Origin: Ophelia neglecta
Taxonomy: Eukaryota
Assembly (NCBI GenBank): GCA_965285935.1
Contig: OZ260662.1
Location: forward strand, 25,668,001-25,732,000
Length of the DNA: 64,000 bases
Direction of reading: 5' to 3'
Positions 1 to 63,400 of the stretch are shown in pieces. The position numbers are program-made. Position 1 is the first letter of the stretch. Each line of letters starts with the position of its first letter.

Positions 1-3000
1 GAGATTATTTGTTTGGCATGAATGTTAGTAACAGTCAAATATAGTGTACAGAGAATCAGTGGAACGTCAATCAGCGTTCCATGGACCAGGTGTACGCTAT
101 AAATATACCAATGAACTGGTGTGACATAGATTTGAAATATAGACAACTGAATTTCCCGCTGTTTTGCCTCATTAATATGCAGGCAACAGGCATGGTTGGC
201 GCTGAAGTAGGCAGTCCCACGCATAAATGAATAAAAATATCGGGAAGCTGGATTTCTCGTCTACCGGAATCTGGTTTGTTTTTCGCCATGACTTGGATAT
301 TATCGGAGTTATCGCACTTTTTACGCCGGCTGTGTACAGCTTACGTTTCCCACCTTTCGCTTCGCTCTTATACACAGTGGGTAGCATTGACATTGACACT
401 AGCACCTGTGCTTTAATCAGACCACCTGTCATTTCAGACCATTAATATAAGGACTGTGCTGTATGCTTCCAATGCTTTATAAACTGTCTAAACAGACCAC
501 CTCGAAAATCAGACCAGCATTTTCCAGTCCCTTTGGTGGTCTGATTTCACAGGTTTCACTGTATATTAATTTTCTTAAAATGTACAAATAAGTGTGTTTC
601 TCTGTAGACTAAGGAGCGTTACGGTCCTAACCTGGACAGCCTGGCCGTGGGCCTGACGGTGGGGGTACTTGTAGACGAGGAGGGCTGTCTACATCTCTAC
701 GTTAATGACATTGACCAAGGGATCGCGGCCAAGGACATTCCCAGTACCTGCTACGCTCTGGTCGACCTCTACGGACAGTGTGAACAAGTCACGGTCGTCA
801 CCAGCGACTCCGAGGTAAACCTGTCAACTTTTGTATACTTTATTTGTCATAATGATAAATTAGAAGTGTCATTGATGTAATGGAGGTTTATTCATTGTGG
901 TCTGAGTAGTATATTTCACTCTCATGGTATTTATACCAAGCTGCCTGGATGTCTTCTGTGTGTGTAGGGTCTGGGTCTATTAGAGTTTTACTAGGACAGA
1001 ACACAGAATGAATCAGGAGGAGCTAAATACTAGTTTATCTTCCAGGGGCTTACTTAATCAACTCATTATAAAAAACATGGAAGAGGCCCTTTGAAAAATA
1101 AAACAAGTTGACACCTGGTTAGGGCCCAACTCGGAGGTAGCCGAGTGCTTCTAGCGTTCGCGTGTGTTGACTTGTGATTTGTATACTACTCTTTACATAC
1201 TCTGCAGCAACAGTCTACAGTATGCCCACTAGTTGACACAGTTATATTCAATCAGAATCAAACACAGGAACCGAGCTACTTAACTGTAAAAGGAATACAG
1301 CCCACACCTCAATACAGTACTTGTACAGTATAATGTGAACATCATTCTGATATCAGGGGTTCTGAAATGATTTGTTCCATGCTTAGATTGTAGCACAACC
1401 AGTTGTTATTATTTGTTTAGACCATGGATCCCTGATATGTAAACAATATGTTTGGGGAGGGAACATCCTATTTGCAAAAAAAAAGGATTTTTATTAAGAT
1501 CATATATGTACTTGTATGTTTAAATAAGTTGTCAGTGATGATCACTAGTGACCTTGACTAGAATGTTTTGCGGCTGGGAACTGTGATTTTTCCCTACATG
1601 TAGGTCTTGTAGATGCCTGGTCTAGTTTTTATATTTGCTCCTTGTTTTTTCGGTGCTGTTGCCGTTTTTTTTTCTTGTTTTGAGAAAGCCGGTTTGTGAT
1701 TTTCATCCGTCTGCTATGATATTTATCGTTTGGATTGTAGGCGTCTGGTCCAGGGGTGGCCCAGGAGTACAGGGAGAAGGCAGACATGGAGGACGGAATG
1801 AAGGAGTCCCAGAAACTAGGACGCATCTGTGAACCCAATGTCATCAAGAACTGTGAATACCAGAACATCTGTGGCCGATTCAAGGCCATGTTTGGGCTTC
1901 CAGGTAAGGGGCATCCAGAAAATAAACTGAGGGCTTCCAGGTAAGGGGTGTCCAGTAAATAAACTGAGAGCTTCCAGGTAAGGGGTGTCCAGATAATAAC
2001 CTGAGGGCTTCCAGGGTAGGGGTGTCCTAATAATAAAGTGAGGGCTTCCAGGTAAGGGTGTCCAGTAAATAAACTTAGGGCTTTTAGGTAAGGGGTGTCC
2101 AGATAATAACCTGAGGGCTTCCAGGGTAGGGGTGTCCTAATAATAAACTGAGGGCTTCCAGGTAAGGGGTGTCCAGTAAATAAACTGAGGGCTTCCAGGT
2201 AAGTGGTGTCCAGATAATAAACTGAGGGCTTCCAGGTAAAGGGTGTCCAAATAATAACCTGAGGGCTTCCAGGTAAAGGGTGTCCAAATAATAACCTGAG
2301 GGCTTCCAGGTAAGGGGTGTCCTAAAAATAAAGTGAGGGCTTCCAGGTAAGGGGTGTCCTAATAATAAAGTGAGGGCTTCCAGGTAAGGGGTGTCCTAAA
2401 AATAAACTGAGGGCTTCCAGGTAAGGGGCGTCCTAAAAATAAACTGAGGGCTTCCAGGTAAGGGGTGTCCTAATAATTAACTGAGGAATGAGATGGGTTG
2501 GAATTTGGTATTACCATTGAGATATCGTGTATATTTGTAAGTTAGGGATGCCAAATGGATTAGGTGAGGGGATACTTGCCAAGGAATATTATTACATGAT
2601 AGTGTTATTCAAAACAAAAACCTGATAATAAACCAGGATTTGTTTGAGGTTTTCCTTGTTTCTGAGCACAGCTGCATTAATCAGACACTTGTTTGTATTG
2701 TAAAGTACATATGTTTTAATTTCAGAGGGTTACTTCAATGAGGAGTTCAACAGATGTTACTGTGAGACTTGTCATAAAATCCGCAGTGACGACCCCTACC
2801 TGAGGAAGGGGGAACCACCGCGGGAGTATGCGTTACCCTTTGGATGGTGCAAGTTTGGTTTACGGTAAACTATTGGACATGTCTAAGCTTGATGTTACAA
2901 AATAACCATTGCTGATGAATCTGTGCTTTTCTGTCATTCTATTTGATATGAATTTGTTAATTGTTCTTTGATTCATACCATCATAATACAGTAACTTTTT

Positions 3001-60400: not shown

Positions 60401-63400
60401 AGATTTAAGTCAACTTTCCCTTGTGCAGTGATTAACTAAAGTGAGAAGTCAATATTATTAATTGTTTGAAAAAAAAGAATGATAAACAGGTGAAATATAC
60501 AGTTAAATCCTCTAGCCCCAGAAGATTGGCTAGCATTAGTTGAGGAATGACAAAGTAGATAATATGAACGTCTATGATATTTGTAAATAATTCATATTTT
60601 AACAGAATAACTGTCAGTTATTATAAGGAGTTAACTAGCTTCTCACTCACTACCTAATTATTGGAGGTATTTTTAACTCTTGTACATGGTTTGCAGAGGC
60701 AGGATACCTTGATGACATCCAGGAGTCTATGAGACCTAAACAGCTAGTCAAATTTGATGACATTATTCCAATTTCCGCCAAGAAGCATATTGGGATTGAG
60801 CACCTGAAATCCCGATTACGAGATCTGTTGGACCTGTATGCTGATATAGAATGGGAGAAAGAGCATGGAGGGGCGAGAGATCGTGCATTACAGGACATAC
60901 AGGACAGTGTGAGAGAGAGGCACCCCGGTGGGAGACTGGTGTGATCTGAGATCATACCAGCCATACAGGACATACAGGACAGTATGAGAGAGAGGCACCC
61001 CGGTGGGAGACTGGTGTGATCTGAGATCAGGCCAGCCATACAGGACATACAGGACAGTATGAGAGAGAGGCACCCCGGTGGGAGACTGGTGTGATCTGAG
61101 ATCATACCAGCCATACAGGACATACAGGACAGTGTGAGAGAGAGGCACCCCAGTGGGAGACTGGTGTGATCTGAGATCAGGCCAGCCATACAGGACATAC
61201 AGGACAGTGTGAGAGAGAGGCACCCCGGTGGGAGACTGGTGTGATCTGAGATCATACCAGTCATACAGGACATACAGGACAGTATGAGAGAGAGGCACCC
61301 CGGTGGGAGACTGGTGTGATCTGAGATCATACCGGCCATACAGGACATACAGGACAGTATGAGAGAGAGGCACCCCGGTGGGAGACTGGTGTGATCTGAG
61401 ATCATACCAGCCATACAGGACATACAGGACAGTATGAGAGAGAGGCACCCCGGTGGGAGACTGGTGTGATCTGAGATCAGGCCAGCCATACAGGACATAC
61501 AGGACAGTATGAGAGAGAGGCACCCCGGTGGGAGACTGGTGTGATCTGAGATCATACCGGCCATACAGGACATACAGGACAGTATGAGAGAGAGGCACCC
61601 CGGTGGGAGACTGGTGTGATCTGAGATCATACCAGCCATACAGGACATACAGGACAGTATGAGAGAGAGGCACCCCGGTGGGAGACTGGTGTGATCTGAG
61701 ATCAGGCCAGCCATACAGGACATACAGGACAGTATGAGAGAGAGGCACCCCGGTGGGAGACTGGTGTGATCTGAGATCAGGCCAGCCATACAGGACATAC
61801 AGGACAGTATGAGAGAGAGGCACCCCGGTGGGAGACTGGTGTGATCTGAGATCAGGACATACAGGACATACAGGACAGTATGAGAGAGAGGCTCCCCGGT
61901 GGGAGACTGGTGTGATCTGAGATCAGGCCAGCCATACAGGACATACAGGACAGTATGAGAGAGAGGCACCCCGGTGGGAGACTGGTGTGATCTGAGATCA
62001 GGACATACAGGACATACAGGACAGTATGAGAGAGAGGCACCCCGGTGGGAGACTGGTGTGATCTGAGATCATACCAGTCATACAGGACATACAGGACAGT
62101 ATGAGAGAGAGGCACCCCGGTGGGAGACTGGTGTGATCTGAGATCATACCAGACATACAGGACATACAGGACAGTATGAGAGAGAGGCACCCTGGTGGGA
62201 GACTGGTGTGATCTGAGATCATACCAGCCATACAGGACATACAGGACAGTGTGAGAGAGAGGCACCCCGGTGGGAGACTGGTGTGATCTGAGATCAGGCC
62301 AGCCATACAGGACATACAGGACAGTATGAGAGAGAGGCACCCCGGTGGGAGACTGGTGTGATCTGAGATCATACCAGTCATACAGGACATACAGGACAGT
62401 ATGAGAGAGAGGCACCCCGGTGGGAGACTGGTGTGATCTGAGATCAGGCCAGCCATACAGGACAAACAGGACAGTATATGAGAGAGGCACCCCGGTGGGA
62501 GACTGGTGTGATCTGAGATCAGGCCAGCCATACAGGACATACAGGACAGTATGAGAGAGAGGCACCCCGGTGGGAGACTGGTGTGATCTGAGATCATACC
62601 AGACATACAGGACATACAGGACAGTATGAGAGAGAGGCACCCTGGTGGGAGACTGGTGTGATCTGAGATCATACCAGCCATACAGGACATACAGGACAGT
62701 ATGAGAGAGACGCACCCTGGTGGGAGACTGGTGTGATCTGAGATCATACCAGTCATACAGGACATACAGGACAGTATGAGAGAGAGGCACCCCGGTGGGA
62801 GACTGGTGTGATCTGAGATCATACCAGACATACAGGACATACAGGACAGTATGAGAGAGAGGCACCCCGGTGGGAGACTGGTGTGATCTGAGATCATACC
62901 AGTCATACAGGACATACAGGACAGTATGAGAGAGAGGCACCCCGGTGGGAGACTGGTGTGATCTGAGATCAGGCCAGCCATACAGGACAAACAGGACAGT
63001 ATGAGAGAGAGGCACCCCGGTGGGAGACTGGTGTGATCTGAGATCATACCAGACATACAGGACATACAGGACAGTATGAGAGAGAGGCACCCCCGTGGGA
63101 GACTGGTGTGATCTGAGATCATACCAGTCATACAGGACATACAGGACAGTATGAGAGAGAGGCACCCCGGTGGGAGAGTGACGTGATCTGCAGGTCATTA
63201 ATTCCTGGCTTAACCATTGAACCCAGGATGCCATGGAAGATATCATGTGACCTTGGGATGACATTAGATTGGCCATGGTGTGATCTTGGTTTGTCCTGAG
63301 CTGTACCACTGCCTTACCTTAGTTTGAATTGAATGTTATGCTGGTTATAGGAATGTCTATGTAAGGATATTGGCAATTATTAAATAGACTATGATGTGAA

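What the first reader, a model, noticed from the sequence alone, without database searches (positions are those of the whole stretch)
1894..63190. All three genes carry tandem repeats anchored on their own coding boundaries
Seen: a 37-bp array begins on a NEURL4 exon end, a 75-bp array begins in the last codons of GTPBP10, and a decayed ~42-bp triplet spans the RABEPK stop. The units are unrelated in sequence, and each array extends downstream in the direction of transcription. Inference: a lineage-specific process may seed or retain minisatellites from exon-edge sequence (e.g. transcription-coupled repair or slippage). Selection alone could also explain the polarity, since arrays growing into exons would be purged.
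Basis: partly seen in the sequence, partly recalled or inferred. Interest (0 to 1): 0.68.

Follow-up and report, generated by a model that had tools for sequence, protein, structure and literature searches.

The report
Minisatellites copied from exon ends
Three neighbouring genes of an annelid-like animal each carry a tandem repeat array copied from the gene's own exon end or stop codon; this is a known kind of repeat, and whether its clustering here means anything special is still open.

Summary
A 37-bp array (1894-2486) starts 10 nt inside a NEURL4 exon and repeats its splice donor. A 75-bp array (60889-63198) starts 18 codons before the GTPBP10 stop. A decayed 42-bp triplet (14227-14341) starts 11 codons before the RABEPK stop. 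[quoted passage not shown] Those two arrays were therefore copied from the exon edge in place. RABEPK is unresolved. The units are unrelated to each other and occur nowhere else in the window.

The kind is already described: amphioxus 'mirage' minisatellites, and the human F7 intron 7 repeat and similar cases.

The downstream polarity is largely automatic. The first copy keeps the working donor or stop, and the later copies fall in intron or 3'UTR.

In the window, 3 of 17 coding 3' boundaries are hit against 0.3-0.7 expected under seeding nulls (P 0.003-0.03). The test is post hoc, rests on n=3 and depends on the null. The proposed lineage-specific seeding process could not be tested: no genome-wide data, no relatives' DNA and no RNA data were available.

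The window is a lophotrochozoan (annelid-like), not human.

The parts
1741..1903 (+). NEURL4 coding exon whose last 10 nt and donor (CAG|GTAAGG) found the 37-bp unit
   Evidence: Translation. Representative search: 4 hits, and the exon end ...LGLP|G or ...LALP|R is conserved. tblastn with P0246. The next exon, 2726-2864, continues the homology (GYFNEE...).
1894..2486 (+). 37-bp minisatellite, 16 copies. Each unit is the exon end plus the intron start. It fills 583 of the 822 nt of the intron (1904-2725).
   Evidence: TRF; unit table. The array holds 11 exact CAGGTAAG, 14 AGGTAA and 11 AATAAA. Read-through from the exon meets a stop after 13 codons.
14307..14416 (-). RABEPK last coding exon, including stop TAG at 14309-14307
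   Evidence: tblastn with Capitella, Lingula and Owenia RABEPK, E 3e-7 to 1e-3. The conserved part ends at ...DDCLVMLLKE.
14227..14341 (-). Decayed 42-bp triplet (2.7 copies, 83%). The first copy is the last 11 codons plus the stop plus 7-8 nt.
   Evidence: TRF; copies printed. Unit against exon end scores 48, against a shuffle mean of 11.7 (0/500 shuffles reach it).
60697..60944 (+). GTPBP10 last coding exon, with stop TGA at 60942-60944
   Evidence: alignment A1 shows the conserved C-terminal ...LV.
60889..63198 (+). 75-bp minisatellite, about 31 copies, 95% matches. Each unit is the last 53 coding nt plus TGA plus 19 nt.
   Evidence: TRF; unit table. The first copy has 1 mismatch to the consensus, which is typical of the array.
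63379..63384 (+). First poly(A)-signal-like hexamer (ATTAAA) after the GTPBP10 stop. It implies that the 3'UTR runs through the whole array (inference).
   Evidence: Hexamer scan: no AATAAA or ATTAAA between 60945 and 63378.

Best explanation
These are three independent minisatellites born in place. Each began as a short tandem duplication of local sequence (37, 42 or 75 bp), by replication slippage or unequal exchange, and its founding segment happened to straddle a coding 3' boundary. Two then expanded by unequal exchange.

Such alleles leave the protein unchanged. The upstream copy keeps the reading frame and the first donor or stop. Every further copy lies in the intron or the 3'UTR. They are therefore tolerated like any non-coding array, whereas duplications inside exons are removed. 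That filter alone produces the picture of arrays 'anchored on the exon edge and growing downstream'.

Shown: the anatomy; the ancestral status of the exonic part of the unit for NEURL4 and GTPBP10; the local uniqueness of the units.

Inferred: the duplication mechanism; use of the first donor only; a 3'UTR that runs through the 75-bp array.

The structures belong to the known class of exon-boundary minisatellites (amphioxus 'mirages'; human F7 intron 7 type).
For: - Anatomy.
- GTPBP10: the tail ...RERHPGGRLV* matches orthologue ends such as ...REHAGGKFV (Nucella) and ...GERARKKLV (Pomacea). Ten of 10 named orthologues end in [LFMI][VT]. The coding part of the unit is therefore older than the array.
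- NEURL4: the exon end is conserved in 4 of 4 hits. The full-length relative continues ...LALP|RGYFEEN, which matches the next window exon. Three ORF fragments from relatives read ...LGLPG and then run into unrelated sequence.
- Units are unrelated to each other and absent elsewhere in the window. This argues against a dispersed element.
- Only the first NEURL4 donor gives the conserved protein. Donor 2 shifts the frame by 37 nt. Every later donor includes the stop found 13 codons into the read-through.
- Precedents: human F7 intron 7 has a 37-bp unit made of 4 nt of exon and 33 nt of intron, and only the upstream donor is used. IFI 6-16, CBS, LMNB2 and PDGF are listed as the same kind (PMC1557585, Introduction). 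Amphioxus mirages in Adh3, globin, TnC and PGBD5 do not disturb splicing (PMC3087553 and PMC3902484, passages).
- The window is very rich in tandem repeats: 29 loci covering 15.6%.
Against: - Three hits among 17 coding 3' boundaries is about 4 to 10 times the 0.3-0.7 expected from random seeding, and all three recognisable genes are hit. Chance plus tolerance may not be the whole story.
- GC-matching the seeds does not remove the excess.
- Amphioxus authors suggested such repeats may be a lineage-wide phenomenon, so a lineage propensity has a precedent (PMC3087553).
- No RNA data show which donor or poly(A) site is used.
- For RABEPK the repeated codons lie in a non-conserved tail, so an exon origin of the unit is not shown.
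- No clear flanking microhomology was seen at the array borders. This was by eye on the outputs, so the founding mechanism remains generic.
Confidence: 0.65

Rival explanations
1. A lineage-level bias exists. In this genome minisatellites are preferentially born at, or just downstream of, the 3' edges of coding exons. Possible causes are transcription- or splicing-coupled breakage and repair, or a recombination preference. The three arrays would then be samples of a genome-wide excess, like amphioxus 'mirages'.
For: - 3 of 17 coding 3' boundaries hit against 0.29-0.31 expected (P about 0.003) or 0.70 (P=0.034).
- 0 of 17 coding 5' boundaries hit.
- All three genes of the window are affected.
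- Two further local intronic arrays lie close behind donors, at relative positions 0.18 and 0.06 in their introns.
Against: - The hypothesis was formed on the same three cases, so every P value is post hoc.
- With both boundary kinds and genic seeding, P=0.17.
- The other donor-proximal arrays show no convincing similarity to the exon end: 15/500, 15/500, 242/500 and 421/500 shuffles reach the observed score.
- One of them lies in a dispersed element, and two are copies of one another.
- The three units share no hairpin or other structural feature.
- The three arrays differ widely in apparent age (83%, 88% and 95% matches).
Confidence: 0.25
2. The array came first. A pre-existing non-coding minisatellite supplied the present exon end, donor or stop codon (exonisation or C-terminal replacement).
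For: For RABEPK only. The 11 repeated codons lie beyond the conserved ...LVxLL motif. Nine of 10 named orthologues end 0-5 residues after that motif, against 19 in the window. Copies 2 and 3 resemble each other more than either resembles copy 1.
Against: - For GTPBP10 and NEURL4 the exonic part of the unit is conserved in distant orthologues.
- The GTPBP10 tail length matches orthologues: about 39 residues against 37 in Lamellibrachia after ...LLD.
- The Capitella RABEPK tail ...DQDGAC aligns with window ...DIDGEC, reaching 2-3 codons into the first copy.
Confidence: 0.05
3. The arrays are functional. The 16 donor copies, each followed by AATAAA, would act as U1-binding decoys or intronic polyadenylation control in NEURL4. 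The 2.3-kb repeat would act as a regulatory 3'UTR in GTPBP10.
For: - 11 exact CAGGTAAG and 11 AATAAA in the 37-bp array.
- The donor part of the unit varies little among copies: 0-1 variant copies at positions 1-11, against up to 8 at positions 24-27.
- The GTPBP10 3'UTR probably spans the array.
Against: - The low variation fits higher-order duplication of a few unit variants rather than selection.
- No relative shows the array.
- In F7 the pseudo-donors are simply silent (PMC1557585).
- No expression data are available.
Confidence: 0.05
4. Artefact or mobile element: assembly-generated repeats, or satellite-bearing transposons inserted next to exons.
For: The window is rich in repeats and mobile elements: a LINE inside a 38-bp satellite and a foldback element in GTPBP10 intron 4.
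Against: - The first unit is in register with conserved coding sequence at its native place.
- Copies carry structured variants.
- The units have no other copy in the window.
- The window contains no N.
Confidence: 0.02

Closest known systems
Amphioxus 'mirage' minisatellites (Adh3, globins BflGb6/BflGb9, TnC, PGBD5)
   Same: Minisatellite-like tandem duplications whose units span an exon-intron boundary and therefore reiterate splice signals. Unit lengths run from tens to about 160 bp. Several genes of one lineage are affected, and splicing is reported undisturbed (PMC3087553 and PMC3902484, passages read).
   Different: - Different phylum: here a lophotrochozoan, annelid-like.
- Mirages are described at both 5' and 3' exon boundaries, whereas here only 3' boundaries are hit.
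- Two of the three cases here span a stop codon rather than a splice site.
- Length polymorphism and somatic instability are not testable here.
- The original Adh paper (PMC117041) is not held. Additional files of PMC3087553 were not seen.
Human F7 intron 7 37-bp VNTR (also IFI 6-16, CBS IVS13, LMNB2, PDGF intronic minisatellites)
   Same: The first monomer spans the exon-intron boundary and the authentic donor is followed by identical pseudo-donors. The F7 unit is also 37 bp, made of 4 nt of exon and 33 nt of intron. The protein needs the most upstream donor (PMC1557585, abstract and Introduction read).
   Different: - Here the unit is 10 nt of exon plus 27 nt of intron, with 16 copies against 5-9 in F7.
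- The sequences are unrelated.
- Donor usage is not measured here.
- Some human cases (6-16, CBS) do use the first two pseudo-sites.
Internal tandem repeats at exon-intron boundaries of human genes in segmental duplications
   Same: Tandem repeats that overlap exon-intron boundaries and can alter splicing patterns (PMC2812944, abstract and passages read).
   Different: Those repeats change exon or intron structure and create new introns in young paralogues. Here the gene products appear unchanged.
Intron gain by tandem duplication of an AGGT-containing segment (recalled from general knowledge, not from a call; also sketched for mirages in PMC3087553)
   Same: A tandem duplication that includes a splice signal places a second signal nearby.
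   Different: No new intron or exon is evident here. The copies sit inside a pre-existing intron or after the stop.

Membership tests
Exon-boundary ('mirage' / F7-intron-7-type) minisatellite | Head-to-tail array of units of about 10-160 bp | tested here: met
   TRF: 37 bp x16.1, 75 bp x30.9, 42 bp x2.7.
Exon-boundary ('mirage' / F7-intron-7-type) minisatellite | One terminal unit is the authentic exon edge plus adjoining non-coding sequence, so the splice signal is reiterated | tested here: met
   NEURL4: unit is 10 nt of exon plus 27 nt of intron. CAGGTAAG is exact in 11 of 16 copies. For GTPBP10 and RABEPK the reiterated signal is the stop codon, not a splice site. This is a variant of the definition.
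Exon-boundary ('mirage' / F7-intron-7-type) minisatellite | The exon part is the original; the repeat is derived from it | tested here: met
   GTPBP10 and NEURL4: conserved in orthologues. RABEPK is inconclusive.
Exon-boundary ('mirage' / F7-intron-7-type) minisatellite | Normal mRNA is made: only the authentic site is used, or mostly so | not testable with these tools
   No RNA data. Indirect evidence: only donor 1 keeps the frame without a premature stop.
Exon-boundary ('mirage' / F7-intron-7-type) minisatellite | Copy-number polymorphism or instability (VNTR behaviour) | not testable with these tools
   Only one haplotype is available.
Transposon-borne or dispersed satellite | Further copies of the unit elsewhere; element termini beside the array | tested here: not met
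   No copy outside the unit's own array in the 64 kb, only 11-16 nt matches with E>=0.2. The rest of the genome was not available.
Hairpin- or structure-driven repeat expansion | Units fold markedly better than shuffles on at least one strand | tested here: inconclusive
   z-scores: 37-bp unit +1.7/+1.3 (no structure); 42-bp -1.0/-2.6; 75-bp -2.3/-1.7. There is no common feature.

The most novel reading that the evidence does not exclude
This annelid-like lineage, like amphioxus, has a real genome-wide propensity to generate minisatellites from the 3' edges of coding exons, both donors and stop codons. The process would be coupled to transcription, splicing or 3'-end formation. Exon-anchored arrays would then be far commoner than random seeding allows, and would be a standing source of cryptic donors, alternative C-termini and new introns.
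Probability: 0.2. Interest if true: 0.6.

Novelty: new member of a known kind. Interest (0 to 1): 0.35.

Why it matters
If the clustering is only chance plus tolerance, the value is practical.
- Gene finders will meet 16 perfect decoy donors in a NEURL4 intron.
- They will meet 31 copies of the GTPBP10 C-terminus with its stop, and long open frames on the opposite strand of both large arrays.
- Annotations of this genome should expect such traps.

If the excess is real genome-wide, it would extend the amphioxus 'mirage' phenomenon to a second, distant animal lineage and to stop codons. It would then give a tractable system for three questions: how minisatellites are born, how spliceosomes ignore identical downstream donors, and how tandem duplication of boundaries feeds intron gain and C-terminal novelty.

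Tried and rejected
- GTPBP10 last exon as query, mode 'longer': 81 candidates, none at E<=0.001. I replaced it with a conserved GTPase exon to fetch full-length orthologues.
- Common structure of the units: DNA folding shows none.
- Shared motif: only a weak ACAGGACA-type similarity between the 42- and 75-bp units (8/300 shuffles). I judged it chance.
- Decayed anchors: four other donor-proximal arrays compared with the upstream exon end gave 15/500, 15/500, 242/500 and 421/500 shuffles reaching the score. This is not convincing. One of them (52848) lies in a dispersed 150-nt element also found at 416-565. Two (54568 and 55566) are copies of each other.
- Flanking microhomology at array borders, by eye: at most 2-3 nt for the 37-bp array. 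For the 75-bp array there is an ambiguous GAGATC / CAGGNCAT pattern that does not fit a simple 75-bp slip. No conclusion drawn.
- Other genes in the window that could add boundaries: 0 of 149 further ORFs of >=55 aa reach a Pfam gathering score, and 3 have sub-threshold hits. An earlier scan of 15 ORFs found only the Neuralized domain and the LINE reverse transcriptase.
- The first coding exon of GTPBP10 (about 15 residues, upstream of 52599) was not located. It is not among the 34 boundaries.
- Rfam: 0 matches. tRNA: 0.
- Literature on stop-codon-spanning minisatellites: 6 papers listed, none on point. On such repeats in annelids: none of the top 12 listings in each describes them. One search call failed on term syntax. 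PMC117041 is not held.
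Full report
**What the window is.** The window has no N and about 39% G+C. It is very rich in tandem repeats: 61 TRF rows merge into 29 loci covering 9,999 bp, 15.6% of the window. Three cellular genes are recognisable. The RABEPK first exon finds 370 proteins at E<=0.001 among 989 candidates. The best named hit is Capitella teleta (68% identity), followed by Lingula and molluscs. An unnamed hit reaches 83%. A GTPBP10 exon finds 328 of 360 candidates, the named ones including Mactra antiquata (79%), Lamellibrachia satsuma (74%), molluscs and arthropods. 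The source is therefore a lophotrochozoan, most likely an annelid, and I did not take it for human.

**Gene models.** I mapped exons with tblastn of fetched orthologues against the window and then read the splice sites.
- NEURL4 (+ strand; the window starts inside the gene): 608-814, 1741-1903, 2726-2864, 3748-3863, 4386-4536, 5282-5489 (stop).
- RABEPK (- strand): 18747-17922, 17713-17390, 14416-14307 (stop).
- GTPBP10 (+ strand): 52599-52792, 53615-53706, 54155-54299, 55854-55927, 59377-59432, 59605-59790, 60194-60317, 60697-60944 (stop). A short first coding exon upstream was not found.

This gives 17 coding 3' boundaries (donors and stops) and 17 coding 5' boundaries. No other gene is evident. 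Of 149 further ORFs of >=55 aa, none reaches a Pfam gathering score. Apart from the three genes, only a LINE reverse transcriptase scores.

**The NEURL4 array.** The exon ends ...TTT GGG CTT CCA G|GTAAGG. The 37-bp array starts at 1894, the Gly codon of ...FGLP, 10 nt before the exon end. Every unit is the exon end plus the donor plus 27 nt of intron. Eleven of 16 copies keep CAGGTAAG exactly, 14 keep AGGTAA, and 11 carry AATAAA.

**The GTPBP10 array.** The 75-bp array starts at 60889, 18 codons before the TGA at 60942-60944. It repeats the last 53 coding nt, the stop and 19 nt of flank about 31 times at 95% identity. No AATAAA or ATTAAA occurs between the stop and 63379. The 3'UTR therefore probably runs through the whole array (inference).

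**The RABEPK triplet.** On the minus strand the 42-bp triplet starts at 14341, 11 codons (GECPEGAAGHS) before the TAG at 14309-14307. It continues for 2.7 copies at 83%.

**Checks on the observation.** All three arrays run downstream in the sense of the gene. The units are unrelated to each other and have no other copy in the window. At TRF minimum score 30 (179 rows), the same three boundaries and no other are hit.

**Which came first: GTPBP10.** Ten named orthologues were aligned with the window's last exon. All 10 end in [LFMI][VT] and 8 end in LV. Their last residues (...REHAGGKFV...REHMGSKLV...GERARKKLV...EQFGQKTLV) resemble the window's ...RERHPGGRLV. The length of the tail after ...LLD.YAD is also similar. 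The coding part of the 75-bp unit is therefore ancestral, and the array was copied from the gene end.

**Which came first: NEURL4.** The 54-residue exon found 4 proteins in 1.84 billion representatives. One is a 1493-residue NEURL4-like protein reading ...CRRFKAMLALP|RGYFEEN, which continues into the window's next exon (GYFNEE...). The other three are short ORF fragments reading ...FK..LGLPG followed by unrelated sequence. In two of them the G-K after LGLP fits a G|GTAAG donor (inference). The exon end is ancestral, and those relatives show no array in their read-through. These four hits are unnamed and their species are unknown.

**Which came first: RABEPK.** Ten of 10 named orthologues carry the GGMDT.G.IF.D.L motif at the very end. 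Nine stop 0-5 residues after ...LVxLL. Capitella adds 13 residues and the window adds 19. The repeated codons lie in this variable tail. Capitella's ...DQDGAC aligns with ...DIDGEC, reaching only 2-3 codons into the first copy. For this gene, exon-first is plausible but not shown.

**How it most likely works.** A short tandem duplication of local sequence was later expanded by unequal exchange. If the founding segment straddles a donor or a stop, the allele encodes the same protein. The first copy supplies the frame and the signal, and the rest is intron or 3'UTR.

For NEURL4 only the first donor is compatible with the conserved protein. Donor 2 adds 37 nt and shifts the frame. All later donors include the stop that lies 13 codons into the read-through.

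Identical downstream donors can stay silent. This is shown experimentally for human F7 intron 7, whose 37-bp minisatellite has a first monomer of 4 nt of exon plus 33 nt of intron, and where a 5'-to-3' scanning process picks the most upstream site (PMC1557585, abstract and Introduction read).

The 75-bp array is homogeneous and its coding first copy is as close to the consensus as most others: 1 mismatch, with 17 of the other 29 copies having more. The array is therefore young, or it is homogenised together with copy 1. The first NEURL4 copy is among the most diverged (4 mismatches; 12 of 15 others have fewer), as expected for an array edge.

The downstream polarity is thus largely built into what a viable allele looks like. 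Three against zero is in any case not significant (two-sided sign test 0.25, my arithmetic), and amphioxus has such repeats at both boundary types (PMC3087553).

**Is it more than chance?** If each of the 29 repeat loci is seeded at a random place, the expected number of founding units straddling one of the 17 coding 3' boundaries is 0.31 under uniform seeding. It is 0.29 when the seed is matched to the unit's G+C. P(>=3) is about 0.003 in both cases, and for either kind of boundary P is about 0.02. Restricting seeds and loci to the three transcribed spans gives 0.70 expected (P=0.034). It gives 0.33 (P=0.005) if the sub-repeats of a foldback element are left out, and P=0.17 if 5' and 3' boundaries are pooled.

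The excess is nominal. The hypothesis came from the same three cases and the outcome depends on the null. Attempts to find supporting signs were weak:
- The other donor-proximal arrays do not resemble their exon ends convincingly.
- Some of them belong to dispersed or duplicated elements.
- The three units share no fold.

**Comparison with what is known.** The kind is described.
[quoted passage not shown] They do not disturb splicing, and the authors said they might be a general feature of cephalochordates (PMC3087553 and PMC3902484, passages read). The original Adh paper is not held, and the additional files were not seen.
- In humans, F7, IFI 6-16, CBS, LMNB2 and PDGF carry minisatellites whose first monomer spans an exon-intron boundary (PMC1557585, Introduction).
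- Internal tandem repeats at exon-intron boundaries have been catalogued in segmental-duplication genes (PMC2812944, abstract and passages).

The NEURL4 array meets every sequence-level criterion of this class. The GTPBP10 and RABEPK arrays are the stop-codon analogue. My searches found no described example of that analogue (6 papers listed, none on point), nor any report of such repeats in annelids (top 12 listings each). This shows only that these searches found none.

**Verdict.** The claim that the repeats were seeded from the exon edge is supported for two of three genes. The polarity has an ordinary explanation. A lineage-specific seeding process is neither shown nor excluded. Still unchecked are the rest of this genome, the orthologous DNA of relatives, any RNA evidence and copy-number polymorphism.

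Noticed in passing
window 30722-36237: A 38-bp satellite (about 9 + 71 copies, 90-92% matches) is split by a 5'-truncated LINE (about 31070-33546). The LINE has a 741-aa open frame with a reverse-transcriptase domain and a (GAATT)n-like 3' tail. The satellite unit resumes in phase across the insertion (ATAGAT | ... | GTCTCACTAGG), so the LINE landed in a pre-existing array.
   Followed up: partly
window 55990-58510 (GTPBP10 intron 4): A foldback-like element of about 2.5 kb. It has nested inverted arms up to 367 nt long and 95-98% complementary, internal 90-152-bp sub-repeats, and a (GCG)18 run at 57440-57493 near the centre.
   Followed up: partly
window 1629-2395 (-) and 60650-63318 (-): The strand opposite both large arrays is open for long stretches, giving ORFs of 230 aa and of 344-488 aa made purely of repeat units. 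Gene finders could mistake these for repetitive proteins.
   Followed up: no
window 416-565 and 52863-53011: A dispersed 150-nt element (85% identical, same orientation) sits just upstream of a NEURL4 exon and just downstream of the first mapped GTPBP10 exon. The small TRF locus 52848-52890 lies inside it.
   Followed up: partly
window 2996-3153 and 16978-17230: Two further local intronic arrays (23/57-bp units, and a CTGA-rich 14/42-bp unit) lie close behind donors, 131 and 159 nt away, at relative intron positions 0.18 and 0.06. Their similarity to the upstream exon end is borderline (15/500 shuffles each).
   Followed up: partly
window 17922-18747 (-): Most of the RABEPK protein, about 276 residues including its kelch repeats, is encoded by one exon. 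The gene has only three coding exons in the window.
   Followed up: no
window 54568-54665 and 55573-55672; 46378-46662 and 47948-48247: A direct repeat pair (77%, about 100 nt, GAGTAC-rich) lies within GTPBP10 intron 3. An inverted pair (74%, about 300 nt) lies in the intergenic region. Their nature was not determined.
   Followed up: no
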